From IMG/VR virus record IMGVR_UViG_2802429219_000004: 26,470 bases of DNA; one strand, 5' to 3'. Within the stretch, counting starts at the first letter, position 1; every line of letters begins with the position of its first letter. This document shows, in pieces, positions 13,755 through 26,380 of this stretch. Origin of the DNA: a virus. Its lineage: Duplodnaviria; Heunggongvirae; Uroviricota; Caudoviricetes. A program made the translations under genes and the position numbers. The notes under the pieces are model-generated. The model did no database searches. It was not told the origin of the DNA and worked only from the letters and a program-made list of their open reading frames with translations.

Positions 13755-13966
13755 CAGAACCTCGCCAGCCGGTACCCGGGATGCCCCCGTCGTCGTGTAA
13801 TCAGAGCCGCAAGGCGGCGCTCCCACTCCTGCCGTCCCTGCCGGATCTCAGATAAGTTTTCCATGGTCATCTGCTGACCATTAAAAGTGACGGATTTTCC
13901 GTCCAGCACCGCCATTTCAGCTTCCGTATAACGCTGAATCATGGCTTCAATATCATTCTGATTCAT
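13754..13966 (-). CDS. W: Head-tail connector / DNA stabilisation protein (gpW-like)
   Basis: About 70-aa ORF ending RRRGHPGYRLARF, like the lambda W C-terminus. Its ATG at 13966 overlaps the terL stop (ATGA). Lies between terL and portal as in lambda. Confidence 0.7.
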   Translation of the reverse strand: MNQNDIEAMIQRYTEAEMAVLDGKSVTFNGQQMTMENLSEIRQGRQEWERRLAALITRRRGHPGYRLARF

Positions 13967-15075
13967 AACCATCCTCCGGAAGTCAGCCAGGGGTTAACAT
14001 CGTCAGTTACTGTTTTCTTCCGTTTTTGTTTTTTAACAGGCGTGGGTACCGGTTCCGGTGAGGGTGACGGTTCGGTACTGTCCGGGACACACTCCAGCCA
14101 GGTTTCCCGGCTCGCCCACTCCGGTGCATCCGGCCAGCGGATCTTTTCGTATCCATGCAGAATGACCAGCGCCTCGGCATACACCATCAGGTCAAAAGCT
14201 TCGTTGGCACCGCGACCCGGCTTACTCCATTTCCCGTCACTGCTCCGCTCTTCATACGTCAGTTCGTCGTAAAACCAGCTCCCCAGCCAGTCAGGGAAAT
14301 GCACATAGCCTGGACCTGGCGAGTCACGCCATAACGCGTTATTCACCCGGTCTTTCAGGGCATCCGTCTGAAGAAGCCAGAGCGGCACATCACCTGCGGC
14401 CTGCGCCCGGCGGCCCGTTCGTCCGGTGTTATCAGGGAATGTACGGCTGATCAGTTTTGCGCGCCGGATGCTGTCGCCCTTAAACAGGTAAATACGTTTA
14501 CCAAGGCCATCACGACGGCAACGACGCCAGAATTTATAGGCATTATCAGTGACCCCGTCTTCACCGCCGGAGTCCACCGCCATTGCCATCAGTCGCATTT
14601 GTTGAGAAGGATCGGAGGCCAGCGGCCAGCTTTTATGAAAAACATCCGTCAGCAGGACATCCCAGTCTTCCGGATAGCTGGCCGGATCAATTCGCTGGCT
14701 CTCCCCGTCGCAGTCACTGCGCAATGACTGCGTGATGTTGTAACGATCAATAATCCAGCGTTCGCCACGGCTGCCATAGCCCGTTACCTGAACCACAAAA
14801 CGGCGATGACGTCCCGCCTGCACATCCACTGTCGCCACAAGGAAATTAACGCCATCCGGAACACTGCGGGAAGGAACTGGCTCTGCCCGCTGCTCAAGCA
14901 GTTCACTTTTTCGTTGCTCCATGCTGGCACGAGGAAGATAAGGCAATCCCCAGTCGGTGTTGATAACCGCCCTGAGTGTTTCTTCGCTTCCTGTCGCTTC
15001 ATACTCCTGTTCTGCAGTCAGTAATTTGTAAACCAGTTGCGCCCAGGTCTGATACGCAGCAGCTGGCCCTTCCAT
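13963..15075 (-). CDS. A: Terminase large subunit (gpA-like), C-terminal segment of a gene split by island insertion
   Basis: 370-aa ORF directly upstream of W and portal. Resembles the lambda gpA C-terminal half (WIIDRY, GPGYVHFP, NEAFDLMVYAEAL). It begins exactly at the CATCCAG core; its first residues MEGPAAAYQTW continue in register from the ...ASFWM end of the fragment at 25811..26380. Confidence 0.8.
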   Translation of the reverse strand: MEGPAAAYQTWAQLVYKLLTAEQEYEATGSEETLRAVINTDWGLPYLPRASMEQRKSELLEQRAEPVPSRSVPDGVNFLVATVDVQAGRHRRFVVQVTGYGSRGERWIIDRYNITQSLRSDCDGESQRIDPASYPEDWDVLLTDVFHKSWPLASDPSQQMRLMAMAVDSGGEDGVTDNAYKFWRRCRRDGLGKRIYLFKGDSIRRAKLISRTFPDNTGRTGRRAQAAGDVPLWLLQTDALKDRVNNALWRDSPGPGYVHFPDWLGSWFYDELTYEERSSDGKWSKPGRGANEAFDLMVYAEALVILHGYEKIRWPDAPEWASRETWLECVPDSTEPSPSPEPVPTPVKKQKRKKTVTDDVNPWLTSGGWL

Positions 15076-15082
15076 CCAGGAA
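15073..15082. repeat. Left attachment-site core (attL): CATCCAG followed by GAA
   Basis: CATCCAG at 15073..15079 is identical to 25814..25820. Flanking bases are partly conserved (CCCT upstream, AA downstream). Sits exactly at the break point of the terL reading frame. Confidence 0.65.
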
Positions 15083-15384
15083 GAAGTAAATAAAAGGTAA
15101 CTAAATGATTATAAGGTACTATTGAGTTATGCCCCCTACAACATAGTCCCAGATTTAGTACCTGCTTAAGCGATAAAAAAGCAAAAAAGGAAGCAATATT
15201 AATTATTGCCGCTATGCATGATCACAATGACAAATCAGAGGCGGAATTCCGCTCTCGGAACTCACATATGAGAAACGATATTTCTTCCACCGATACCCTT
15301 TATTTGGGTATCGCAAGTAAGCCCCAAAATCTGGGTGTTACTCTTACTACCCAAACTACGGGTAGTTTCCGTAATTTCATGGTC

Positions 15385-15449: not shown

Positions 15450-15737
15450 TTACCGCCGCAACCATTCCGGCTTCTTCCACTGATAAGTATTTTTCGCGCT
15501 CTCCCTCCGTTGTTGAGAACGGCGACGGTATGCCAGCAACTCAAGGACTCTGGTTCGTATGTTGCGCATATCCACGCCGTTAAGCTCAATACCGTCACGG
15601 CGCATCACCTCAGCCACCACACGCGCGTAATTTTCAGCGGTGACTGTATCCGGCTGCGCGGCCTGTTCGTCAGCCAACTGGCTAATTCCACCAGCACAGC
15701 GGATTAATCGCAGTATTTCAGATTCGGTCATTATCAT
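15450..15737 (-). CDS. Hypothetical protein (95 aa), translationally coupled to terS
   Basis: ATG at 15737 overlaps the terS stop (ATGA). N-terminus SEILRLIRCAGGISQL weakly resembles the N-terminus of lambda gpA as I remember it. Function unknown. Confidence 0.5.
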   Translation of the reverse strand: MIMTESEILRLIRCAGGISQLADEQAAQPDTVTAENYARVVAEVMRRDGIELNGVDMRNIRTRVLELLAYRRRSQQRRESAKNTYQWKKPEWLRR

Positions 15738-16219
15738 GCCTGTTTTGCGACCTCATTCACTACGTCATTTTTTACCATCCGGCTGATAATCTGATTACAC
15801 AAATCGTCAATAATTGACTGCACTCTGTTTACTGCCATCGGTTTAAGCCCAACATCACGTGCCAGAATACTGGGGAGTTTTTCCAGTTCCTCGCTTACGA
15901 TTTCTCCCCATATAGCCATCTCTTTTCGCACATCATCGGCGGGTATGAGTTGCGCCGTTTCCTGTTCGAACTTGAGGCGCTCACGTTCGGACTGATACCA
16001 GGCCTTACGGTCGTGTGGCTCCATTTCTTCCAGTGATGCCGGAACGGGAAGATCAAGAAAACAGGTCAGAATGTCAGTCACCCGATAGAGTTTCAGCTTG
16101 TCATGTCCTCCGGCTGGCTGGATATTTTTCAGCCTTGCCGCCGCAGTCTGGCGACATATTCCCGCTATCGCCGCCAGCTGGTTAATGTTCAGCATCAGAT
16201 TTTTCAGTTCCCGATCCAT
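15734..16219 (-). CDS. Terminase small subunit (Nu1-like), island-encoded
   Basis: ORF 15734..16276 trimmed to ATG at 16219 (MDRELKNLMLNINQLAAIAGICRQTAAARL), with a GGAG SD 6 nt upstream. N-terminal HTH resembles lambda Nu1 (NKKQLADIFGASIRTIQNW). Lies immediately downstream of cos-like repeat 1, as Nu1 follows cos in lambda. Confidence 0.75.
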   Translation of the reverse strand: MDRELKNLMLNINQLAAIAGICRQTAAARLKNIQPAGGHDKLKLYRVTDILTCFLDLPVPASLEEMEPHDRKAWYQSERERLKFEQETAQLIPADDVRKEMAIWGEIVSEELEKLPSILARDVGLKPMAVNRVQSIIDDLCNQIISRMVKNDVVNEVAKQA

Positions 16220-16372
16220 ACCCGCTCCAGAATGTTTTAAAAATGCATCTTGCAAATATCTTTTAAAAAAGGTCAAAAAACGCGCTGCATGTTGAACACA
16301 AAATAAGCAAAATTAACATACCAAAAATAAAAACACTTAAAATTCAATATAATAGAAAGATGATGATGACGA

Positions 16373-16476: not shown

Positions 16477-18390
16477 TCATGCTCCACTCGATTTCAGTAA
16501 TCCGCGATAGTCGAGGGCCGCGACACCTGCATCTATGCGCACCTTCCAGGCGACGCCATCAACAGTAAATCCCTCCTGCTCCTCAAGATATGGCGTATCA
16601 ATACCATCAAGATAAGCGACCTCTATCGTGTCCATCCCCTTCGCCGCTGCCACATACCACTCCTTGTTATTGGCTTTATCAAGACGCGGCTCGACGATAA
16701 CCTCTGCCATATCTTTCACCGCGTTAATGATGCCGGGGTTCTGATTGATAGTGCCTCCACCATCAATCGGAAAGAGTGATGACGATGACAGAATGGCGCG
16801 ATGTGCGGCAGACTCCAGCGCAGCAGGGACCAGAACAAAAGCGGGGGTAATATTCAGGGAGTCGCCGTTGGCATCCTCCTGTAATCGCATCAGCTTACGG
16901 GCTTCGTTAAGCCCCTCCATGTCCATATCCTTCGCAATAAGATTTTTATGATCGGCATGGAATAACGCTTTACCATCCGTAAATTTGCCGTTGCTGGTTA
17001 ACAGAAGATAAACCAGATTACCTACTGTTCTGGCGGCCGCACGCCCCATCGCCATGGGGATTGTAGTTAACTGGGTCAGGTCATCGTTGATAATGGCCTG
17101 ACGGGTAACAGAAAAAATATTACCGTATGTGGCCAGCGCAATAGGTACACCTTTATCGCTGGTGGTGATGTATTTATATTCCGCACCTTCCGGTACTTTA
17201 TCCAGCTTTGAAAAACCATTCAGACCAACGCGCTTTGCTTCATGAAAGTTTGAAAGCGATCCGGTACGCGTCCATTTCTGGAACGTTTCGCCGCTGTCCT
17301 GCCAGCCTTTCAGCACTGACTTTTCAGCACCACCAGCCAGAATATGAGAAAAATCGCTGCTGCTGTGTGTGAAAGCTGCATTAACGACCTGCGAGCGATT
17401 TAAAAAACTGCCAACACTGATACCACGATCAGTTAGTGATGCCTGGGCCATTTCAAAAAGGCTCATCATCGCATAAGGATTTCCCCGCTCTGGGCGTTCA
17501 TACCCGAGACGAGAATAAAGCCCCTGACGAATTGCATCGCCTGTTATGTTCCCGTTACCGGCATAAATATGAGTCGGGATATTTTTATTGGATGGCGTGG
17601 ACTCGCGCCCCAGCTCGTTCAACAACTTTTCACGGGCCATCTCCGGTGTACATGATGCATCCTCCAGGCACGCCATTTTGATCCCGTCGTAACGACTGCC
17701 GAACAGGCTAAACACTTCACTTATTCCGTTGATGCGCTTCTGTTCATTACCAGCAATATTGGCTGCTCCCTGTGGCGGGATAATCATTCCTTTAATGGTT
17801 TCCGGCATGTGTGAAAAATCTCCTGTGCGTTTCGATTCAATTCGCGCCATTGCTGTGACAGATGGCAACAATTCATCAGCAAAACCGTGCTTAAGGCATT
17901 CTTTCCCGTCCATCCAGGTTTCATCTTCCAGCATGGCGGTAATTTCCTGTGCTGATTTGCCCGTTTTTCTGGCATAAGCAGGGACTAACACGGTTTCCAC
18001 CTTATCCAGCAAATCAGCATAATCACGCATATCACCAGCATTTCCGCCAGAGATACCCCACGGCTTATGTATCATCATCATGGCGTTTTCCGGCATCACA
18101 ACACGATCGCCAGCCATTGCGACAACCGAAGCCATTGAAGCCGCAACACCATCGATATAAACCGTAATTTCTGCCGGATGATTCCGTAACAGGTTATAGA
18201 TGGCGATGCCTTCAAACACGTCACCACCTGGCGAATGGATCCGCAGGTCGATATGTGAGACATCGCCCAGGGCTTTCAGGTCTTCCGCAAACTTCTTCGC
18301 GGTAATACCGAAGCCGCCAATTTCTTCATAGATGGATATTTCTGCCGCTCCGCGAACACCCAGCGCCTTAATGGTGTACCAGTGATTCAT
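16477..18390 (-). CDS. Prohead protease (ClpP/S49-like) fused to major capsid protein, island paralog
   Basis: 637-aa ORF with ATG at 18390. Has the same SPGGDVFEGIAIYNLL protease motif and capsid C-terminus (TIEVAYLDGIDTPY) as the helper gene at 10274..12232, but is diverged elsewhere. Confidence 0.85.
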   Translation of the reverse strand: MNHWYTIKALGVRGAAEISIYEEIGGFGITAKKFAEDLKALGDVSHIDLRIHSPGGDVFEGIAIYNLLRNHPAEITVYIDGVAASMASVVAMAGDRVVMPENAMMMIHKPWGISGGNAGDMRDYADLLDKVETVLVPAYARKTGKSAQEITAMLEDETWMDGKECLKHGFADELLPSVTAMARIESKRTGDFSHMPETIKGMIIPPQGAANIAGNEQKRINGISEVFSLFGSRYDGIKMACLEDASCTPEMAREKLLNELGRESTPSNKNIPTHIYAGNGNITGDAIRQGLYSRLGYERPERGNPYAMMSLFEMAQASLTDRGISVGSFLNRSQVVNAAFTHSSSDFSHILAGGAEKSVLKGWQDSGETFQKWTRTGSLSNFHEAKRVGLNGFSKLDKVPEGAEYKYITTSDKGVPIALATYGNIFSVTRQAIINDDLTQLTTIPMAMGRAAARTVGNLVYLLLTSNGKFTDGKALFHADHKNLIAKDMDMEGLNEARKLMRLQEDANGDSLNITPAFVLVPAALESAAHRAILSSSSLFPIDGGGTINQNPGIINAVKDMAEVIVEPRLDKANNKEWYVAAAKGMDTIEVAYLDGIDTPYLEEQEGFTVDGVAWKVRIDAGVAALDYRGLLKSSGA

Positions 18391-19019: not shown

Positions 19020-19442
19020 TTAAAACGGTATTTCATCCCCGTACGGATCATCATTTCCCGCCTGTTGTTTTGCCCTGTTCAGTGCGTCAGTGACCTGCCC
19101 CAGTTGGCCTTTTTTACCACCTGGTCGCGCCGTTCTGGCACTGATTACACTGTCTGCGATAACCTGCCAGCCCTGCCGTATTTCGCCGTTCTGGCCTGTC
19201 CACTGGTTCACCTGCATGTTACCAGCCACGCTCAGGAGTTCCCCCTTGCGGTGCTTTGCCAGCGCTTCGGCCTGCCTGCCAAATGCCAAGACGGATAACC
19301 ACATCGTCGCCGTTCCGTCATCTGCCTGGCTGCATGGCAGCGGGACCGCCATACTCGCCATTGCCATTTGTGTACCCTTGCTGGTGGTCTTTAACTGCGG
19401 GTCATTTGCCAGCCGCCCGTAAGCTGCTATCTGTGCTGTCAT
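19020..19442 (-). CDS. ssb: Single-stranded DNA-binding protein (SSB-like)
   Basis: 140-aa ORF with an OB-fold-like core (MWLSVLAFGRQAEALAKHRKGELLSVAGNMQVNQWT) and an acidic C-terminal tail ending DDPYGDEIPF, like the SSB DDDIPF tip. ATG overlaps the stop of the upstream orf81. Confidence 0.7.
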   Translation of the reverse strand: MTAQIAAYGRLANDPQLKTTSKGTQMAMASMAVPLPCSQADDGTATMWLSVLAFGRQAEALAKHRKGELLSVAGNMQVNQWTGQNGEIRQGWQVIADSVISARTARPGGKKGQLGQVTDALNRAKQQAGNDDPYGDEIPF

Positions 19443-19971: not shown

Positions 19972-21831
19972 TTAATTTTTGCTATCGTCATTAGTGACCG
20001 ATACACATGATGGCATCCAGTCTTCTGATTCCTCCGTCAGGGTCACGTTTGAACGCAAACCGTGCTTCGTTTTCCGTTTCATATACTCCCTGCCATATTC
20101 CGCCATTGCCCCCGGCATATCTTTACCGAAGCGCGTCAGTGTTACAGGTTTACCAAACCCATGTGCCCTCATATAAGCCAGATAGGCATGATAGAGATAC
20201 CTGCGTGGGCTGAATGGCACAATTTCAGCATTACCCACTAACAGGCCATCACACATTACCGATGCCATGAGATAGCCGCAGAAGTCCACCAGCGAATCCC
20301 CCTCTCGCTTTATCGCCAGTGCTTCTTCAGATTTCTGCTGCTCATATAACAGGCGTCTGGCTTCGTCCTGATCAGCAAATCGTGTAAGCAGATGACGAAT
20401 CACTACCGCCAACTCACCTTCTATTTTTTCCGCCAGCATCGAATCGCGTTCGTTCTCCGGTACAACTTCCGAAAAATTGAATATCACCCGACGACGTGAG
20501 ATCCCCCCGCTGCGATCACTGAATGACATGGCGTTATTGTTAACCGCCAGCACTACTGCCGGAATACGCGTTGAATAGGGGGCTTTGTGTTTCGGGTCAA
20601 TTGCCACCTTGTCACCGCCTGTAATGGCCTTAATCCCTGCCCCATCACCAGCGTAGCGGGTCATATCCGGCATGATAATCAGCGAAAAGCCAACCACTAA
20701 CGCGCGTTCCCTTGCGTCTTCCAGCGCCTTCATGCTTGCTGATACTGTATTAGCCTTACCCGCCAGCATGGTGCAAATCTCCGCCATCACGCTTTTACCG
20801 CTTCCCCCCGGCCCTGTTACCTCAATGAATAACTGCCAGTCGTACCGGTTCGCCAGCACCATGAATAATGCCGCCAGTACACGATCTGCCTTGCGGTCAT
20901 TCTCAGCCACCGAACGGCGCAACCACTTCCAGAAATTCGGCGCATGTGTTGCCAGCGTTTCCCCCTCTGCTGGTGGGCTGAACGGTAATTCACTGGCAAT
21001 TAACAACCAGTCATTTTTGTTATGCTTCCGAAAATTACCTGTCCGGGTATCAAATACCCCGTTACTGAATCCAATCAGGTTACGGGCTGTATTCCCCATC
21101 ACAGGCAAGCTTAACTTCATGGTATCGACCGCCGATTTAATGGCGTTCTGCGAATAGCTGATCTCCGCATCAATGAAAATCTGCGCCATAGCACGCTGTA
21201 ACTCTTTATCCTGTACTGGCTCCCATACAACGCCGTTGTAATGGTGAACAGTGTCAGAGTCGGCATGAATCGCCAGTTCACCGCCATAACGTGCTAGGAG
21301 GACTTCACCGCGTTGACTTGCTCCCATCTGGTTAAGCGCCAGTGATGAAGCCTTATCGTCTTTTATCCGCTCTTTTTTCTTTACAGGCAGTTCAACTACT
21401 TTTTTACTTTCTGCTAATTCCCTGCTGCTCATAACCAGACTTTCTCCGCGTTCATATTCAGCTTTCAGCCCGGCAAGGCGCGGCGACCAGTCCTCCGGCG
21501 ATTCCTTATCTGCAAAGCTCCGCCAACAACGTGCATTTTGCACACCAGCAACTGCAAGTAAGGTGGCGATCTGCGTAAGACTGCGCTCTGTGATATGTCC
21601 TGCGCAATAAATGCGTACACATTCACGACCATCATCAATGATCCGGTAGTCGGTGATGTTTTTCAGTTGCTCATCAGCCAGCACAACAGGCGGCACGTTG
21701 TCGGCAGCAATATGTTTACCTGCCCACTCCTGCCACTCTTTCGCATGGCTCCACGCATCACTACCCGCAAAGATGATTACCTCTGTCAGTCTGTCGCGTG
21801 GCTGTTTTTTTAAGTTCGGTGCAAGCTTCAT
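19972..21831 (-). CDS. Replication initiator: primase/helicase (D5-N-like plus SF3/P-loop helicase)
   Basis: 619-aa ORF with Walker A GPGGSGKS and a Walker B-like LIIMPD. Size and position (upstream of the iterons) fit a PICI/P4-type Pri-Rep. ATG overlaps the stop of the upstream 99-aa ORF. Confidence 0.8.
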   Translation of the reverse strand: MKLAPNLKKQPRDRLTEVIIFAGSDAWSHAKEWQEWAGKHIAADNVPPVVLADEQLKNITDYRIIDDGRECVRIYCAGHITERSLTQIATLLAVAGVQNARCWRSFADKESPEDWSPRLAGLKAEYERGESLVMSSRELAESKKVVELPVKKKERIKDDKASSLALNQMGASQRGEVLLARYGGELAIHADSDTVHHYNGVVWEPVQDKELQRAMAQIFIDAEISYSQNAIKSAVDTMKLSLPVMGNTARNLIGFSNGVFDTRTGNFRKHNKNDWLLIASELPFSPPAEGETLATHAPNFWKWLRRSVAENDRKADRVLAALFMVLANRYDWQLFIEVTGPGGSGKSVMAEICTMLAGKANTVSASMKALEDARERALVVGFSLIIMPDMTRYAGDGAGIKAITGGDKVAIDPKHKAPYSTRIPAVVLAVNNNAMSFSDRSGGISRRRVIFNFSEVVPENERDSMLAEKIEGELAVVIRHLLTRFADQDEARRLLYEQQKSEEALAIKREGDSLVDFCGYLMASVMCDGLLVGNAEIVPFSPRRYLYHAYLAYMRAHGFGKPVTLTRFGKDMPGAMAEYGREYMKRKTKHGLRSNVTLTEESEDWMPSCVSVTNDDSKN

Positions 21832-22132: not shown

Positions 22133-22333
22133 TTATTTTCCTGTCAGTGATTCAAGTTTTATTCCGGCACGAATACAGGCCTCAGAAAAAAAAGCCAGAG
22201 AACCAACAACCTCATTATTTCTAAGGCGGCATTGTGATTTCACTTTCCCTTTATCGAGAAATATCAAAACGCGTCCCGTATAATCTGACGGCACATTAAG
22301 AACTACAGGTAAGTGCGCTTCATAATTGTGCAT
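22133..22333 (-). CDS. Hypothetical protein (66 aa)
   Basis: ATG at 22333. Part of the same minus-strand operon leading into the primase gene. Confidence 0.4.
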   Translation of the reverse strand: MHNYEAHLPVVLNVPSDYTGRVLIFLDKGKVKSQCRLRNNEVVGSLAFFSEACIRAGIKLESLTGK

Positions 22334-22529
22334 GCTGCGCCCCCTGACGAATACAGGCAGTGAATACCATCACGCAGCCAACCGTGGATTGCTGGCGGAC
22401 TTCCTGTTCGCTGGTGGCCTCGATGTGAATCACGCGCGGTTGTGCGGTGCTCAGGGCGATAAAACGCCAGATGTATTTATTCAGGTTGTGCGAGTCCCGC
22501 CCTTGCGGGTGTGTGGTATGATTTAACAT
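22320..22529 (-). CDS. Hypothetical protein (69 aa), first gene of the replication operon
   Basis: ORF 22320..22895 trimmed to ATG at 22529 (MLNHTTHPQG...), preceded by a GAGGT SD. The track's long N-terminal extension is antisense to the plus-strand cargo gene and is rejected. Confidence 0.4.
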   Translation of the reverse strand: MLNHTTHPQGRDSHNLNKYIWRFIALSTAQPRVIHIEATSEQEVRQQSTVGCVMVFTACIRQGAQHAQL

Positions 22530-22624
22530 AGCTACCTCGATACTGTTGCTATCGTTGGTGGTTAGACGCCCTGCATGTGTTCCAGCACTGCGGGGCGTTG
22601 CGTTATTAAATGCACACGTGTTAA

Positions 22625-22669
22625 TGTGTACACCTATCGAATGAAAACATAACGCTATAGGTGTACACA
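22625..22669 (+). promoter_or_regulatory. Operator-like inverted repeat upstream of the Arc-like gene
   Basis: Perfect 13-bp inverted repeat TGTGTACACCTAT (22625..22637) and ATAGGTGTACACA (22657..22669), 19 bp apart. Each arm contains the palindrome GTGTACAC. The right arm abuts the ATG at 22669. Confidence 0.5.
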
Positions 22670-22863
22670 TGTCAACAATAATTAAACGCGATAAAAAACC
22701 CAAAGGGACAGGAAAGGCTCCCCCTTTCCATATGCGTATAGCTCCAGAACTGAAAGAACAGTTTGATAGCGAGGCTAATAATGATGGTGTAAGCCTTGCT
22801 AACTGGCTTAAAGAGTTAGGGCGCTCCGAACTAAAGCGGCGCGGTATCGAACCTAAGGGGTGA
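22669..22863 (+). CDS. Arc/MetJ-like ribbon-helix-helix DNA-binding protein (64 aa)
   Basis: Basic N-terminal tail, then a strand-helix-helix pattern (PPFHMRIAPELKEQFDSEANNDGVSLANWLKELGR) reminiscent of Arc/Mnt repressors. Opposite strand to the rest of the island; AT-rich. Confidence 0.55.
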   Translation: MSTIIKRDKKPKGTGKAPPFHMRIAPELKEQFDSEANNDGVSLANWLKELGRSELKRRGIEPKG

Positions 22864-22894
22864 ATTACTACTTCTATGATAGGATATATTAACA

Positions 22895-23338
22895 ATGAAG
22901 AGATTTAGAACAATATTACTGAAAATACTCGGTGCAAAAACATCCATTGCCATATTATGTGTTTTTTGTGGAGCAAGCTTTTTGTTCGGCCAATATCTTA
23001 ATGATATGAATCTATTCGCCAGCTCAGGTGCAATTATTTCAGTTTTTGGATTGTTGTATACAATCAAGTTCACAACTTTAAAAAAATTATCTAATCGCGA
23101 AGCTGAAATTAATTCACGCAGTGGCGTAACTGGCCCGCCATTGTCTGCGGAAGAATCACAAAAGATACGAGAAGAAAACTTAGCTAAAGCTCGAGTTGAG
23201 GTCAGAGAGGAAATAAAAGCTGAAGTACTCGGGGTTGGACTAACTGTTTTTGGCACCATTATATGGGCATATGGCGGATACATAAAAATTATTCCATCCC
23301 TCGTAATGTGGATAAGACATTCATTGTTGATGCAATAG
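22895..23338 (+). CDS. Small membrane protein (147 aa): two N-terminal TM helices, a charged coiled-coil segment, one C-terminal TM helix
   Basis: Hydrophobic segments ILLKILGAKTSIAILCVFCGASFLF, AIISVFGLLYTIKF and VGLTVFGTIIWAYGGYIKII flank a charged stretch SAEESQKIREENLAKARVEVREEIKAEV. Markedly low-GC sequence. Followed by a plus-strand terminator. Confidence 0.55.
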   Translation: MKRFRTILLKILGAKTSIAILCVFCGASFLFGQYLNDMNLFASSGAIISVFGLLYTIKFTTLKKLSNREAEINSRSGVTGPPLSAEESQKIREENLAKARVEVREEIKAEVLGVGLTVFGTIIWAYGGYIKIIPSLVMWIRHSLLMQ

Positions 23339-23360
23339 AGAAAAATATAAAAATAAAACT

Positions 23361-23390
23361 GGCGACCACCTCGGTCGCCTTTACTTTTAT
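23361..23390 (+). terminator. Intrinsic terminator ending the plus-strand cargo cassette
   Basis: Hairpin GGCGACC-acctc-GGTCGCC (23361..23379) followed by TTTACTTTTAT. Confidence 0.6.
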
Positions 23391-23554
23391 CTAAAGTCCA
23401 ATTGATAAAATAAAGAACTGCAGCATCTATTCCTGCAAAACTTCATGCTTTCAGGACGGCTGCTCATATGTCATTTTTTAGCAGAAGATTTTGCCTTGCT
23501 GGTGGGGAGCTTCCCGGTTAACACGATGTATCGTATAATCAGCAATGCGCGTGG

Positions 23555-24136
23555 TTACTGAATACGCTCACCAAAGTAAAACTCAGGCTGATATTCACGT
23601 ATCAGCCTTTTTTCTTCTTCCTCCAGCTCACGCTTTTTGCGCTTACATGCCTGTAGCTCCCTCCCCTTCTCGCTGGCACTTATTTGATATTGCTCTTTAC
23701 GGCGGGAAAAATCCTGTAATGCACCCCACGGGATACCATAAGCCCCCGTTTTTCTGATACCTGGTATCACATTCCTGAATACCCAGTTACTGAAACGATG
23801 GGCGAACGTGCCAGGAGTAACAGCTTTGCGACTTCTGGCGATCAGCTTGTAAAAACCAGATTCAGAAACGACGCTATGATTTGGATTTCCGCGAATACCG
23901 TAGCTTAAAGCGACGGTATTCTTCTCATCCACATCCAGAGCTTTTAGAGCATCGCGTGAGTTGCTTATTTCCAGAGCTTCACAAACATCCTTTGCAATAA
24001 ACCACGGATCGCCGTTCAGATACACCACACGAACATCCACGCCATCAAAGCGCAGAACGACAAGATCACGAATATCGCAGAATTTTTTTACTGAACGAGC
24101 GTACCCCTTGCCCGTCACGGCAATATTTTTATTCAT
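23555..24136 (-). CDS. Bro-N domain protein (antirepressor-like)
   Basis: 193-aa ORF. N-terminal segment FDGVDVRVVYLNGDPWFIAKDVCEALEI matches the Bro-N signature. Charged, coiled-coil-like C-terminus. Confidence 0.7.
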   Translation of the reverse strand: MNKNIAVTGKGYARSVKKFCDIRDLVVLRFDGVDVRVVYLNGDPWFIAKDVCEALEISNSRDALKALDVDEKNTVALSYGIRGNPNHSVVSESGFYKLIARSRKAVTPGTFAHRFSNWVFRNVIPGIRKTGAYGIPWGALQDFSRRKEQYQISASEKGRELQACKRKKRELEEEEKRLIREYQPEFYFGERIQ

Positions 24137-24194: not shown

Positions 24195-24398
24195 TTAGTG
24201 GGGATTGGCCTGTTCTCGTTGTTTATCTAACCATGCCTCTACATCTCTACGGTGCCAGGTATGCCGCCGCCCAATTCTGAACGGTTGAGGAAAACCATTA
24301 TTTTCATCTTTCCAGAAATTGATGAATGCGCTCATTGCCCCATAGCGCAAAATTTTCATTACGTCTTTAGTAAATAAAATATCTTCATTGGTATTCAT
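24195..24398 (-). CDS. alpA: AlpA-family transcriptional regulator / excisionase-like protein
   Basis: 67-aa ORF immediately downstream of int. Has the AlpA-like pattern (KDVMKILRYG...FPQPFRIGRRHTWHRRDVEAWL). GGAG SD 8 nt upstream. Confidence 0.7.
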   Translation of the reverse strand: MNTNEDILFTKDVMKILRYGAMSAFINFWKDENNGFPQPFRIGRRHTWHRRDVEAWLDKQREQANPH

Positions 24399-24410: not shown

Positions 24411-25649
24411 TCAACCATTTACTATTCTCAAACCTTTCTTACCACCGGATCTATTAATTACCCCTTTTCTCGCCTCATCAAAAAAATCTCCTACCCATTG
24501 CATCATAATTTTGCGTTGTTCTAAATAAGTAGTTCTATTATAAATATCTCTTATTTTATCACCACTTTTATGTGCTAATGCAGCCTCAATAACATCAGGG
24601 TTAAAACCCTCCTCATTTAAAAGCGTACTCCACATCGAACGAAAACCGTGTAACGTTACAATCCCTTTGAACTTGCTGGCAGCAATTGGGGTATTGATAG
24701 TATTCTTTCCCATAGGAGCATCTTTTGTTCTGGAGGAAAAAAATATATAACGCCCTCTTTTTATTTCCTGCATTGTTCTTAGGATTCTAATAGCCTGTGA
24801 TGAGAGAGGCACAACATGTTCACGATGGCATTTCATTTTATGCGCGGGGATAATCCACAAGCCAGAATCAAAATCAATCTCGGACCACTCTGCTTTAATC
24901 GCCTCACCTGGCCTGACCATTGTCAATATCTGGAATAAAAGTGCATTGTGAGCTATTTGATACTTATGAGGCACACTATCCCACCAACTCAGAAATTCAG
25001 GCAATCTTTCAACAGGTAGTGCAGCTAATGATTTATTTTTCTTTCCTGTGAATGCAGTTTTTATCTTAAGTAATGGATTCGTTTTCAATGCTCCACAATT
25101 TACAGCGTAATTCATAATTTCATTTAATCTTGATATTAATTTTTTTTGCAACGCATTCTTATCGGATACGGCATCCAGAGCATTAATAGCTACTGGCGCT
25201 GTAATTTTCTCTATGCTGTACTTACCAAAGAAAGGAACAAGATATTTGTATACTTCATATTCGATATTATACAGCGTAGGTTTCCGCAATTCCGATCCCT
25301 TTTTAAAAGCGATCCATGCATTAGCAACAGCTTCAAATGTTTGTAGATTTTTTAGTGACATCTCAATTTTACGATTTTTCTTCTCTGTCACTGGATCAAC
25401 TCCACGTGCAATCATTCGCCGAAGTTCATCACGTACTTCCCGTGCTTCCGCGAGTGAGAATTCAGGAAAACGCCCTATCGTGTATGTCTGCCGTTTCTTC
25501 GTTATCGGATGGCTATAACGGAAACGCCACACTTTCCCACCAGCTTTACTCACATTCAGCAATAAACCGAACCCATCATAAACGGCATAGTCCTTTTCAC
25601 GTGGTTTCATTCCCTTAACTTCAGTCACAGTTAATGGCTTTACCGGCAT
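24411..25649 (-). CDS. int: Tyrosine integrase, P4 / CP4-57 type
   Basis: 412-aa ORF. N-terminal arm-binding-type region (LTVTEVKGMKPREKDYAVYDGFGLLLNVSKAGGKVWRFRY) and C-terminal catalytic region with HGFRSMWSTLL and a downstream His/Tyr. Start lies about 160 bp from the attR core. Confidence 0.9.
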   Translation of the reverse strand: MPVKPLTVTEVKGMKPREKDYAVYDGFGLLLNVSKAGGKVWRFRYSHPITKKRQTYTIGRFPEFSLAEAREVRDELRRMIARGVDPVTEKKNRKIEMSLKNLQTFEAVANAWIAFKKGSELRKPTLYNIEYEVYKYLVPFFGKYSIEKITAPVAINALDAVSDKNALQKKLISRLNEIMNYAVNCGALKTNPLLKIKTAFTGKKNKSLAALPVERLPEFLSWWDSVPHKYQIAHNALLFQILTMVRPGEAIKAEWSEIDFDSGLWIIPAHKMKCHREHVVPLSSQAIRILRTMQEIKRGRYIFFSSRTKDAPMGKNTINTPIAASKFKGIVTLHGFRSMWSTLLNEEGFNPDVIEAALAHKSGDKIRDIYNRTTYLEQRKIMMQWVGDFFDEARKGVINRSGGKKGLRIVNG

Positions 25650-25810
25650 CTATCGCCCTCATTTTTTAGTCCGTCATGTAGTCCTTTCAAGTCGATAACA
25701 AGCGATAAACTAACTCATTATCAAGTAAAGAGAGGAAACACAAAAAATCACAACTCATTGAAAAGACTACAAAACGACACCAGAACATAAAAACAGGTAA
25801 GAAATGTACC

Positions 25811-26380
25811 CTACATCCAGAAACTGGCGATACGGGAGCGGCGCGGTTCACCGGAAACGTTGCCGTTACGATCAATGACCTGACCTTCACGCAACCAGAC
25901 TCCTGCACTATTGAGCTCACGCTTTTTCTCCGCAGTGATAATGCCGCTGCAGTGCGGGCAAAGTAGATACGCCGCCTCACTGGCTTTAAAGGGATCCGGT
26001 TCATTACGGTAGCCGGTCATGGCATCCATAGCTGGCTGAAAATATTCACCGCAGTGCGGACATGGCCAGTACCAGCGGCGGCGGTCACCACGATTGTAAA
26101 GGGAAAGAATACCAGTCGTCGGTGGCGCTTCATGAGGCGACTTACGTCGCCATTTGCTGTCGCAGATGTCACGTCCCGGCGAGCTCTCCACCAGAGTCAT
26201 CCCGGCGGACATAAATGTGGTGGTACGTTTTGAGGCCAGGGAGAAACCATCACCCTCGCTGTCGATATTCTCCGGAAAACGGTCGTAATCGGTTAAGGCG
26301 ACAAACCGGTAATCCGACGACGACATAATGTTGACCGAGGGCCTGTCAACGCCACGATGTTTGACCGTTATTTGCCATTT
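25811..26380 (-). CDS. A: Terminase large subunit (gpA-like), upstream segment of the split gene; 5' end unresolved
   Basis: Frame open from the stop at 26381..26383 to TAG at 25811; first ATG at 26326. Contains WYWPCPHCGEYFQ and LLCPHCSGII, resembling the CPHCGE region of lambda gpA. Ends ...RSRIASFWM, continuing in register with MEGPAAAYQTW at 15075. Confidence 0.7.
   Translation of the reverse strand, partial: KWQITVKHRGVDRPSVNIMSSSDYRFVALTDYDRFPENIDSEGDGFSLASKRTTTFMSAGMTLVESSPGRDICDSKWRRKSPHEAPPTTGILSLYNRGDRRRWYWPCPHCGEYFQPAMDAMTGYRNEPDPFKASEAAYLLCPHCSGIITAEKKRELNSAGVWLREGQVIDRNGNVSGEPRRSRIASFWM
25814..25823. repeat. Right attachment-site core (attR): CATCCAG followed by AAA
   Basis: Identical 7-bp core to 15073..15079. 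Lies in the last codons (F-W-M) of the terL N-terminal segment, which then hits TAG immediately. Confidence 0.65.

What the first reader, a model, noticed from the sequence alone, without database searches (positions are those of the whole stretch)
22625..23390. Low-GC, opposite-strand cargo cassette: Arc-like regulator with palindromic operator, plus a small three-TM membrane protein
Within an otherwise minus-strand island, two plus-strand genes (22669..22863 and 22895..23338) form an AT-rich block with their own terminator at 23361..23390. The upstream perfect 13-bp inverted repeat, with the palindrome GTGTACAC in each arm, suggests autoregulation by the RHH protein. The second product is a small membrane protein with a central charged coiled-coil segment. 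Position (between the Bro-N gene and the replication operon) and composition match the accessory hotspots where satellites carry anti-phage or exclusion functions. A repressor plus membrane-effector pair could be an abortive-infection, superinfection-exclusion or toxin-like module. I do not recognise it as a named system.
Basis: inference. Interest (0 to 1): 0.7.

Follow-up and report, generated by a model that had tools for sequence, protein, structure and literature searches.

The report
Satellite repressor switch plus membrane-protein cargo
The two genes are not one system: the first is the Arc-type repressor at the on/off switch of a phage satellite, and the second is an exchangeable, uncharacterised membrane-protein gene in a slot that in sister satellites holds known anti-phage genes.

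Summary
The described features are present. There are two plus-strand genes (22669..22863 and 22895..23338), a perfect 14-nt inverted repeat (22624-37 / 22657-70) and a terminator at 23361-79. The island is a helper-embedded PICI satellite inserted in a prophage terminase gene.

Gene 1 is an Arc-family ribbon-helix-helix protein and a core satellite gene. It occurs with its upstream region in about 230-280 of 5426 E. coli genomes. The full two-gene cassette occurs in only 4.

Its two operator copies overlap the near-consensus promoter of the divergent replication operon and a conserved extended -10 element for the gene itself. Across 85 loci, operator sequence class tracks the residues that align with Arc's base-contacting Gln9 and Asn11, one to one. 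It is probably the satellite's immunity repressor.

Gene 2 is a three-TM inner-membrane protein with a cytoplasmic helical hairpin. It has no Pfam, PHROG, NCBIfam, PADLOC or fold relative and no conserved partner gene.

It sits in a cargo slot that starts at the repressor's stop codon. In sister satellites that slot holds PD-T7-1, a putative AbiC protein, SWIM proteins or nothing. An anti-phage or exclusion role is plausible but untested. The "repressor plus effector module" reading is not supported.

The parts
22529..22605 (+). Candidate antisense small RNA opposite the SD and start of the Icd-like gene. It ends in a conserved GC-rich hairpin (22566-22598) followed by a T-rich tail. The putative extended -10 TGGTATGAT lies at 22514-22522. 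This is adjacent context for the switch. The ends are inferred.
   Evidence: The TG[GA]TATGAT element sits at a fixed position in most relatives. RNAalifold on 20 diverse copies gives 22 pairs, 16 of them with compensatory double changes. Frequent G-U pairs occur on the + strand only. There is no Rfam match.
22619..22627 (+). Putative extended -10 promoter element (TGtTAATGT) for the RHH/cargo transcript. It overlaps the left end of operator copy 1.
   Evidence: TGnTA[AG]nGT is conserved at this position in all 47 distinct upstream regions surveyed. Promoter function is inferred, not shown.
22624..22637 (.). Operator copy 1 (ATGTGTACACCTAT), the left arm of the inverted repeat.
22646..22675 (-). 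Sigma-70-like promoter of the minus-strand replication operon: -35 TTGACA (22675-22670), an 18-nt spacer, and -10 TATGTT (22651-22646). The -35 overlaps codons 1-3 of the RHH gene, and operator copy 2 fills the spacer.
   Evidence: scores 10 of 12 consensus matches. TGTCAA was found next to the start codon in every locus examined, and a TAnnnT hexamer lies at 17-18 nt in 45 of the 47 distinct upstream regions (L115 and L127 lack it).
22657..22670 (.). Operator copy 2 (ATAGGTGTACACAT), the right arm. It also contains the RHH gene's SD (AGGTG) and the first two bases of its ATG.
22669..22863 (+). Arc-family ribbon-helix-helix repressor (64 aa), a core gene of this PICI family.
   Evidence: Arc 1b28, E 4.4e-4, residues 12-59; helices 26-38 and 43-57, disordered basic tail; prevalence; specificity residues track operator class.
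22864..23400 (.). Cargo slot (hotspot). Homology to cargo-less sister islands stops exactly at 22863.
   Evidence: the L002 and L035 alignments end at 22863. Searches show the alternative cargos, including PD-T7-1, putAbiC, SWIM and DUF5677.
22895..23338 (+). Cargo gene: 147-aa inner-membrane protein with N-in topology. TM1 spans about 16-35, TM2 about 40-57, a cytoplasmic helical hairpin about 58-110 with a GVTGPP turn, TM3 about 111-129, and there is a short C-terminal helix.
   Evidence: pLDDT 89.9; conserved D.N.FASSGA...G and GTxIWAYGxY motifs; no family or fold match.
23361..23390 (.). Bidirectional intrinsic terminator between the RHH/cargo unit and the convergent Bro-N/alpA unit.
   Evidence: GGCGACC...GGTCGCC with T-runs on both strands.
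22320..22529 (-). Icd-like gene, the first gene of the replication operon that the switch is proposed to control.
   Evidence: NF033153, E 6.6e-15; RefSeq annotation.
23555..24136 (-). Bro-N / anti-repressor-like gene. It forms the right border of the slot.
   Evidence: PF02498, 5e-18; phrog_2593 anti-repressor, 9e-83.

Best explanation
The region holds two functionally separate things that share one transcript. (1) Gene 1 is an Arc-type RHH repressor at the central switch of a Gram-negative PICI satellite, here a helper-embedded PICI in a prophage terminase gene. Dimers of it are proposed to bind two inverted 12-14-bp operator copies whose centres lie 35 bp apart. Copy 1 overlaps the extended -10 element and probable start site of the repressor's own promoter, which would give autoregulation. 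Copy 2 fills the spacer of the near-consensus, oppositely directed promoter of the Icd-like/DUF4222/primase operon, which would keep replication silent in the integrated state. This makes it the functional analogue of the Stl/Rpr master repressor of Gram-positive PICIs. Different satellites carry different repressor/operator specificity classes. (2) The slot that begins at the repressor's stop codon is an exchangeable cargo position. Cargo genes are always co-oriented and start 5-32 nt after the stop, so they are probably co-transcribed with the repressor and expressed while the satellite is quiescent, as lambda rexAB is with cI. In this island the cargo is a stand-alone three-TM inner-membrane protein of an uncharacterised proteobacterial family. 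Its most likely role is phage exclusion or abortive infection acting at the inner membrane without a partner protein. What is shown: the gene and repeat anatomy, the family assignment of gene 1, the co-variation, the hotspot, and the absence of a partner. What is inferred: DNA binding, the promoter assignments, co-transcription, and the anti-phage function.
For: RHH identity: PHROG 228 'Arc-like repressor' at 9e-6. The profile of 22 homologues hits P22 Arc (1b28) at E 4.4e-4 over residues 12-59 and Mnt at 0.13. The AF2 model shows a disordered basic tail, an extended segment and two helices. Core status: the upstream region plus RHH gene is found in 277 E. coli genomes by megablast and in 229 at 80% coverage or more by blastn, against 4 genomes with the whole cassette. 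The gene is always divergent from the Icd-like/primase operon in E. coli, Enterobacter, Providencia and Xenorhabdus islands. Operators: two inverted copies lie at fixed offsets (-45 +/-3 and -10) in all 47 distinct upstream regions. Six operator sequence classes map one to one onto residues 19 and 21, which align with Arc Gln9 and Asn11: PH 17/17, AQ 33/33, QR/QK 26/26, MN 4/4, TQ 3/3, IS 2/2 (using the alignment). Promoters: TTGACA-18-TATGTT on the minus strand, and both promoter-like elements are conserved. Hotspot: homology to cargo-less islands ends at 22863. Alternative cargos starting 5-32 nt after the stop include PD-T7-1 (PADLOC 7e-151; validated in PMC9519451), putAbiC (PF16872, 2.8e-16), SWIM, DUF5677, several unknown proteins, or none. 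PICIs are known to carry immune systems near their 5' ends (PMC11364771). Membrane protein: confident three-TM model. Its homologues stand alone next to TIR_2, DarT/NADAR and FRG genes, toxin-antitoxin modules and transposases, and on small Acinetobacter plasmids.
Against: No experiment supports DNA binding, repression, co-transcription or any phage phenotype. [quoted passage not shown] The residue/operator correlation rests on about six or seven lineages and could partly reflect shared ancestry. A 35-bp spacing between the operator copies is unusual for a 64-aa RHH protein. Most other cargos in the slot are also uncharacterised, so guilt by location is only moderate evidence. The membrane protein matches no PADLOC model. 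Some distant homologues sit in unremarkable chromosomal contexts, such as Francisella near hyp genes or between LysR and HD-GYP genes.
Confidence: 0.5

Rival explanations
1. The two genes form a dedicated two-component module, either toxin-antitoxin-like or abortive-infection. The RHH protein would be the specific regulator or antitoxin of a toxic membrane effector.
For: The genes are adjacent and co-oriented with a 31-nt gap and no terminator between them. RHH-then-membrane-gene adjacency recurs with three different RHH classes: the window, Kluyvera L013 and the thrW-type L004. A truncated RHH remnant even precedes the membrane gene in Xenorhabdus. NCBI names some RHH homologues 'HicB family antitoxin'.
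Against: The RHH gene occurs without the membrane gene in 273 of 277 close E. coli loci and with more than ten other cargos. The 64-aa protein has no extension beyond the RHH fold that could bind a toxin. The HicB Pfam score is below the family cut-off (18 versus 21 bits), and there is no hicA gene. Membrane-protein homologues outside Enterobacterales have no RHH neighbour. The operator brackets the replication-operon promoter, which a cassette-specific regulator would not need.
Confidence: 0.07
2. The inverted repeat works mainly as an RNA hairpin in the 5' leader of the RHH mRNA. It would sequester the SD and AUG for translational control, rather than acting as a protein operator, or would act in addition to one.
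For: As RNA, 22618-22680 folds at -22.3 kcal/mol with z = -5.1 against shuffles, and arm 2 contains AGGTG and the AU of the AUG. The conserved feature across lineages is that the two copies are inverted relative to each other (9-12 of 12 positions), not that each copy is a palindrome.
Against: The conserved TGnTAAGGT element places the likely start site at the end of arm 1, so the mRNA would lack arm 1 (inference). In the AGGTGnnCACCT class the central dinucleotides vary independently between copies. GACC/GACC occurs in two distinct upstream variants (5 loci), which would give two A-C mismatches in a hairpin. The operator class tracks the Arc-equivalent base-contacting residues one to one, which an RNA-only model does not predict.
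Confidence: 0.15
3. The membrane protein serves the satellite's own life cycle. Possible roles are modulating helper lysis timing (holin or antiholin-like), interfering with the helper, or anchoring a process at the membrane, rather than defending the host.
For: It is a small three-TM protein on a satellite that depends on helper-mediated lysis. Three of 39 family members give faint hits to a holin family, best E 0.0046 and below the family cut-off. The slot lies in the 'Bro zone', which is rich in regulatory and interference genes (PMC10111431).
Against: Only 4 of 277 close islands carry it, so it is dispensable for the life cycle. Homologues occur on small non-mobilisable Acinetobacter plasmids and in chromosomes with no satellite or phage nearby. 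It lacks a charged C-terminal tail and has no endolysin neighbour. If co-transcribed with the repressor, it is expressed in the quiescent rather than the induced state (inference).
Confidence: 0.15
4. The membrane protein is an accessory gene unrelated to phages, for example involved in envelope stress, transport or signalling. It would be carried passively in a permissive insertion slot.
For: No homology to any defence family was found. Some distant homologues lie in ordinary chromosomal contexts. Fusions to extra TM segments or a zinc ribbon say nothing about function.
Against: The same slot holds PD-T7-1 and putAbiC. Several non-satellite homologues sit beside TIR_2, DarT/NADAR, FRG and PHP-ATPase genes and toxin-antitoxin modules. 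One family member is fused to an Mrr_cat nuclease domain.
Confidence: 0.2

Closest known systems
P22 Arc and Mnt repressors (immI region), Arc/MetJ RHH superfamily
   Same: Small size and the beta-alpha-alpha layout. The profile aligns along the whole of Arc, with P-x-F-x-x-R in the N-terminal strand. The operators overlap promoters. The setting contains an anti-repressor-type (Bro-N) gene and possibly an antisense RNA, as the P22 sar RNA does in immI (established knowledge).
   Different: Sequence similarity is only at profile level. The operator is two 12-14-bp copies 35 bp apart, rather than one 21-bp site bound by two adjacent dimers. The protein sits in a satellite and faces a replication operon rather than ant.
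Stl/Rpr master repressors of Gram-positive PICIs (SaPIs)
   Same: The position and logic match. It is a repressor gene divergent from the excision/replication operon at the satellite's switch, with int on its own side (PMC6092414).
   Different: Stl proteins are large HTH proteins that are unrelated in fold. How this RHH protein would be inactivated by a helper phage is unknown. The Gram-negative PICI literature names only AlpA, an activator, as regulator.
Lambda cI-rexA-rexB and similar prophage morons co-transcribed with the immunity repressor
   Same: An exclusion-type gene lies directly downstream of the maintenance repressor and is therefore expressed in the quiescent state. RexB is also a roughly 144-aa polytopic inner-membrane protein (established knowledge).
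   Different: There is no sequence or fold similarity, no RexA-like partner, and no tested function.
Defence hotspots of phage satellites (P4 hotspot, Rousset 2022 PMC9122126; PICI 5'/3' ends and the pri-adjacent region, PMC11364771)
   Same: A variable cargo position is flanked by conserved core genes, and known defence genes are among the alternative cargos (PD-T7-1, putAbiC).
   Different: This slot is defined precisely by the stop codon of the RHH gene, and its cargo is placed in the repressor's operon. I did not find that precise description in the papers I could search. The membrane protein matches none of the PADLOC v2.0.0 models.
HicB antitoxins (the name NCBI gives some homologues)
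   Same: A weak match to the C-terminal RHH DNA-binding part of HicB (PF05534, 18 bits).
   Different: There is no N-terminal HicA-binding domain, no hicA gene, and the score is below the Pfam cut-off. The name is a domain-level mislabel.

Membership tests
Arc/MetJ ribbon-helix-helix repressors | Sequence or profile similarity to solved Arc-family members across the beta-alpha-alpha core | tested here: met
   The profile hits Arc 1b28 at E 4.4e-4 over residues 12-59 and Mnt at 0.13. phrog_228 'Arc-like repressor' scores 9.2e-6.
Arc/MetJ ribbon-helix-helix repressors | N-terminal strand followed by two helices joined by a G-x-S/T turn | tested here: met
   AF2 shows an extended segment at 18-25 and helices at 26-38 and 43-57. 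G40-V-S42 and P18, F20, R23 are conserved. The strand forms a sheet only in a dimer, which a monomer model cannot show.
Arc/MetJ ribbon-helix-helix repressors | Dimerisation and sequence-specific binding to repeated operator sites | not testable with these tools
   The evidence is indirect: two operator copies in all 47 upstream variants, and a one-to-one match between residues 19/21 and operator class.
HicB antitoxin / type II toxin-antitoxin pair | N-terminal HicA-neutralising domain and an adjacent hicA toxin gene, with the pairing conserved across loci | tested here: not met
   The protein is only 64 aa. PF05534 scores 18 bits against a cut-off of 21. No hicA-like ORF is present. The downstream gene varies or is absent.
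Gram-negative PICI / helper-embedded PICI (Tommasini 2023) | Ordered zones int-alpA, Bro, replication (primase, SSB) and late, inserted inside a prophage late gene | tested here: met
   The genes are int 24411..25649, alpA 24195..24398, Bro-N 23555..24136, primase 19972..21831, ssb 19020..19442, a protease-capsid fusion 16477..18390 and DUF1441 15734..16276. The terminase gpA gene is split into 13963..15075 and 25811..26326+. The zone scheme is from PMC10111431.
Satellite defence hotspot cargo | Variable gene content at a fixed position between conserved core genes, with known defence genes among the alternatives | tested here: met
   PD-T7-1 at 7e-151 and putAbiC at 2.8e-16.
Satellite defence hotspot cargo | The cargo itself protects against phage | not testable with these tools
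   This needs plaque and liquid-infection assays.
Known membrane exclusion or abortive-infection proteins (RexB, SieA/SieB, Imm, HK97 gp15, AbiC/AbiP) and SLATT-type TM effectors | Detectable sequence or fold homology | tested here: not met
Holins | Small TM protein with a short loop, a charged C-terminal tail and an adjacent endolysin | tested here: not met
   The cytoplasmic hairpin is 52 residues long, the C-terminal helix is hydrophobic, and there is no lysis gene in the island. Phage_holin_3_6 scores E 0.48 for this protein.

The most novel reading that the evidence does not exclude
The RHH protein, its two inverted operators and the adjacent antisense RNA candidate together form the missing immunity switch (master repressor) of a large group of Gram-negative PICIs. 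It would have at least six exchangeable specificity classes. The 147-aa protein would found a new family of stand-alone inner-membrane anti-phage (exclusion or abortive-infection) proteins spread across Proteobacteria on satellites, plasmids and defence islands.
Probability: 0.25. Interest if true: 0.7.

Novelty: new member of a known kind. Interest (0 to 1): 0.5.

Why it matters
There are two practical consequences. First, the founding paper on Gram-negative PICIs states that a global repressor is 'unclear' and that why these elements are controlled differently from Gram-positive ones is 'a mystery' (PMC6092414). A small Arc-type repressor sits on the replication-operon promoter, and its operator classes co-vary with its DNA-reading residues. 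That gives a directly testable candidate and predicts immunity groups among co-resident satellites. Second, the repressor's stop codon gives a simple sequence anchor for harvesting satellite cargo. Validated defence genes (PD-T7-1) sit there, so the many unknown genes in the slot are a short, enriched list of candidate anti-phage genes. That list includes this membrane protein, which is common in Shigella sonnei and E. coli assemblies and has relatives on Acinetobacter plasmids.

Tried and rejected
1. Family searches of the membrane protein against Pfam, PHROGs, NCBIfam and PADLOC, and of all 39 aligned members against Pfam and PADLOC, gave nothing consistent.
3. A search for a conserved partner gene covered 25 or more loci across Proteobacteria. 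None was found. The upstream ORF on Acinetobacter plasmids is a truncated DUF3800 protein.
4. An Rfam scan of the island for the C4/IsrK immunity RNAs reported in other PICIs gave no match at E of 1 or less.
5. The HicB antitoxin naming was rejected.
6. Literature searches found nothing for a PICI-associated RHH, Arc or HicB regulator, or for the protein accessions. Subscription-only papers are not covered.
7. The first attempt at locus retrieval with the broad alignment failed because no conserved stretch was available. It was redone with a narrower alignment.
8. I first read each operator copy as an independent 12-bp palindrome. The survey of 47 variants showed that the conserved property is the inverted relation between the two copies.
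Full report
**Observation**

The window carries a lambda-like prophage late region: tail, tape-measure, capsid and portal genes, and a terminase gpA gene split into 13963..15075 and 25811..26326+. A roughly 10.7-kb island lies between the two terminase pieces.

On the minus strand the island encodes:
- integrase (24411..25649) and AlpA (24195..24398)
- a Bro-N/anti-repressor-like protein (23555..24136)
- an Icd-like protein (22320..22529), a small protein and a DUF4222 protein
- a D5-type primase (19972..21831) and an SSB
- a ClpP-protease/major-capsid fusion and a DUF1441 protein

This is the four-zone layout of a helper-embedded PICI as described by Tommasini et al. (PMC10111431).

The repeat is perfect over 14 nt and is far beyond chance. 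Only the second gene is unusually AT-rich, with GC 0.372. The RHH gene has GC 0.456, against an island average of 0.46.

**Gene 1 is an Arc-family protein**

- It hits PHROG 228, 'Arc-like repressor', at 9e-6.
- A profile of 22 homologues aligns residues 12-59 with residues 2-49 of P22 Arc (E 4.4e-4) and more weakly with Mnt.
- The AF2 model shows a disordered basic tail, an extended segment and two helices joined by G-V-S, which is the RHH layout of a monomer.
- Its match to Pfam HicB is below the family cut-off. The protein has no room for a toxin-binding domain, so the 'HicB antitoxin' label that some database entries carry is a domain-level mislabel.

**Gene 1 is a core satellite gene, not part of a cassette**

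- Megablast of 22540-23420 against 5426 complete E. coli genomes finds the whole cassette in 4 genomes. The first ~320 nt, the upstream region plus the RHH gene, occur in 277.
- blastn finds 229 genomes with 80% or more of 22530-22863.
- In every island inspected the gene is divergent from the Icd-like/primase operon across a ~135-145-nt intergenic region. This holds for E. coli at tRNA-Pro, in capsid genes and near nfeF, and for Enterobacter, Providencia, Citrobacter/Klebsiella at thrW, Kluyvera and Xenorhabdus.

**The repeat is best read as this protein's operator at the satellite's switch**

I surveyed 80 IMG/VR loci with RHH homologues, which gave 47 distinct upstream sequences. All have two 12-mers at about -45 and -10 relative to the start codon.

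The conserved property is that the two copies are inverted relative to each other, matching at 9-12 of 12 positions. The core sequence changes between lineages:
- AGGTGTACACCT
- AGGTGTGTACCT / AGGTACACACAT
- AGGTGCGTACCT / AGGTACGCACAT
- AGGTG[GA][CT]CACCT
- AGGTATAGACCT / AGGTCTATACAT
- ACGTACGTACAT
- GTGTATGGACCT / GGGTCCATACAT

Using the Arc alignment, residues 19 and 21 correspond to Arc Gln9 and Asn11. Together with Arg13, these read the bases in the Arc-operator complex (established knowledge). In 85 loci the residue pair predicts the operator class without exception: PH 17/17, AQ 33/33, QR/QK 26/26, MN 4/4, TQ 3/3, IS 2/2. P18, F20, R23 and I24 never vary. This is what repressor-operator co-evolution looks like. 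The caveat is that it amounts to about six or seven independent lineages.

**What the operator controls**

The consensus scan finds a strong minus-strand promoter: TTGACA (22675-22670), an 18-nt spacer, and TATGTT (22651-22646). Its -35 overlaps codons 1-3 of the RHH gene, and TGTCAA was found next to the start codon in every locus examined. A TAnnnT hexamer sits at a 17-18-nt spacing in 45 of the 47 upstream variants. Operator copy 2 fills the spacer of this promoter. Copy 1 lies just downstream of its expected start site.

On the plus strand, a conserved TGnTA[AG]nGT (an extended -10; 22619-22627 in the window) abuts and overlaps copy 1.

A repressor bound to both copies would therefore shut off the replication operon and limit its own synthesis. 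The two promoters face each other with start sites a few bases apart (inference from the consensus elements). No transcript ends have been mapped.

[quoted passage not shown] I found no paper linking PICIs to an RHH regulator.

**The RNA rival**

As RNA the two arms would form a -22.3 kcal/mol hairpin (z = -5.1) that covers the SD and the AUG. Three points count against this being the main function:
- The conserved -10 element predicts a start site at the end of arm 1.
- In one operator class the central dinucleotides vary independently in the two copies, including GACC/GACC, which would put two A-C mismatches in a stem.
- An RNA-only model does not predict the match with residues 19 and 21.

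I keep it as a minor rival or an additional layer.

**Gene 2 sits in a cargo slot**

Alignments to cargo-less sister islands end exactly at 22863, the RHH stop codon. Downstream of the RHH gene, different islands carry different co-oriented genes that start 5-32 nt after the stop:
- a SWIM zinc-finger protein (13 of 80 loci, plus three E. coli genomes)
- a 67-aa protein (9 loci)
- the 147-aa membrane protein (7 loci)
- a 227-aa TM-anchored putAbiC protein (PF16872, 2.8e-16; 5 loci)
- a 454-aa PD-T7-1 homologue (PADLOC 7e-151; 5 loci)
- a 241-aa protein, a DUF5677 protein, and 176- and 180-aa proteins
- nothing (9 loci)

PD-T7-1 is an experimentally validated anti-phage gene (PMC9519451). PICIs are known to carry immune systems near their 5' ends (PMC11364771).

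The tight, co-oriented spacing and the absence of a terminator before 23361 suggest that the cargo is transcribed with the repressor. It would then be expressed while the satellite is silent, in the manner of lambda cI-rexAB (inference).

**What the membrane protein is**

AF2 with a 39-sequence alignment gives pLDDT 89.9. The model shows:
- a basic N-terminus (five Lys/Arg in 15 residues)
- TM1 at ~16-35, a four-residue turn (NDMN) and TM2 at ~40-57
- TM2 continuing as a helix to residue 75
- a GVTGPP turn and a return helix that becomes TM3 (~111-129)
- a short C-terminal helix

By the positive-inside rule the N-terminus and the 52-residue charged hairpin are cytoplasmic.

Conservation is concentrated in D37/N39, in FASSGA...G (G45 and G52 invariant) and in G120-T-x-x-W-A-Y-G. 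These are glycine faces spaced seven residues apart, which suggests tight helix packing or oligomerisation (inference).

An exhaustive HMMER search of 1.8 billion representatives finds only 52 relatives. Members have no Pfam, PHROG, NCBIfam or PADLOC assignment, and the model has no significant fold neighbour. All database names are 'hypothetical protein', apart from one UniRef 'DUF3899' label on the Acinetobacter homologue.

**Where the family occurs**

In Enterobacterales it is found in PICIs:
- The window type is seen on many Shigella sonnei and E. coli contigs. Individual 147-aa cluster members are recorded on 519, 460 and 141 contigs.
- An 81%-identical type occurs in Kluyvera.
- A 70%-identical type is widespread at thrW, where P0010 is seen on 562 contigs.

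Each of these follows an RHH gene of a different class. In Xenorhabdus the gene lies between int and alpA, preceded by a truncated RHH remnant. The island's intact RHH gene sits elsewhere, opposite the primase.

Outside Enterobacterales it stands alone:
- on small non-mobilisable Acinetobacter plasmids, among toxin-antitoxin modules
- beside TIR_2, DarT/NADAR, FRG and PHP-ATPase genes in a Moraxellaceae genome
- near a TIR_2 gene in Aidingimonas
- next to HigB/HTH and Phd/YoeB pairs and transposases
- in some ordinary-looking chromosomal contexts

No neighbour recurs. A few members are fused to four extra TM helices, to a zinc ribbon or to a C-terminal Mrr_cat nuclease domain. The protein therefore appears to act without a dedicated partner.

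**Mechanism and confidence**

I commit to the following model. The RHH protein is the satellite's immunity repressor. It controls the replication operon and itself through the two inverted operators (about 0.7-0.75). The position after its stop codon is an exchangeable cargo slot (about 0.9). The membrane protein is a stand-alone inner-membrane cargo whose most likely role is phage exclusion or abortive infection (about 0.4). The remainder is split between a satellite life-cycle role and a role unrelated to phages.

**Novelty and score**

The island type, the existence of PICI defence hotspots and the RHH fold are all known. Three things appear new in the literature I could search: the identification of this RHH/operator pair as a candidate master switch with specificity classes, the definition of the cargo slot by the repressor's stop codon, and the membrane-protein family itself. 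None of this is categorically new, and no function has been shown. I score interest at 0.5.

Noticed in passing
window 22514-22605 (+): A candidate ~75-nt antisense small RNA lies opposite the SD and start codon of the Icd-like gene. A conserved extended -10 (TGGTATGAT, 22514-22522) is followed by two hairpins. The second (22566-22598) is GC-rich with a T-rich tail, which is weak here and strong in relatives. RNAalifold on 20 copies gives 16 of 22 pairs with compensatory changes, and G-U pairs occur only on the plus strand. There is no Rfam match. The first ~75 nt occur in 1683 of 5426 E. coli genomes, including next to P4-type 'ash' genes.
   Followed up: partly
window 15060-15090 and 25800-25830: The island interrupts a lambda-type terminase gpA gene. 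The reading frame runs ...ASFWM | EGPAAAY..., with a short shared core (CTGGATG) at both junctions. This makes it a helper-embedded PICI of the 'A: terminase' site type, which is already described (PMC10111431). In strain IMT16316 the same island has its integrase cut by IS1.
   Followed up: partly
window 15734-16276 and 16477-18390 (-): The satellite's late zone carries its own ClpP-protease/major-capsid fusion (NF045540, 3e-272). It also carries a DUF1441 protein of the same family as the gene just upstream of the prophage's terminase gene in L001 (12923-13417). This is consistent with capture of helper late genes.
   Followed up: no
L012 5853-5924 (Xenorhabdus ishibashii): A start-less fragment encoding PELRQQLNDAVEREDMNFGYWMK*, which is homologous to residues 26-48 of the RHH protein, lies 76 nt upstream of the membrane-protein gene. 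This suggests that the cargo moved together with the 3' end of an RHH gene.
   Followed up: partly
L003 2992-3843 (Acinetobacter pittii plasmid pTCM-2 and ten similar plasmids): A 48%-identical homologue of the membrane protein follows a truncated DUF3800 ORF on small non-mobilisable plasmids. These plasmids are packed with toxin-antitoxin modules (BrnTA, RelBE, ParE).
   Followed up: partly
proteins P0065, P0028, P0020/P0021/P0023: The three-TM module occurs fused to a C-terminal Mrr_cat restriction-endonuclease-fold domain (513 aa), to an N-terminal zinc ribbon (227 aa), or to four extra N-terminal TM helices (285-300 aa).
   Followed up: no
L118 2702-4066, L108 2728-3411, L127 2712-3902 and other IMG/VR loci: The slot after the RHH stop codon holds PD-T7-1, putAbiC and DUF5677 proteins, plus several unannotated proteins (241, 180, 176, 114 and 67 aa). 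This gives a short list of further candidate anti-phage genes.
   Followed up: partly
window 23390-23555: A 165-nt non-coding stretch lies between the bidirectional terminator and the end of the Bro-N gene. A second hairpin at 23585-23608 lies inside the 3' end of Bro-N. It was not examined.
   Followed up: no
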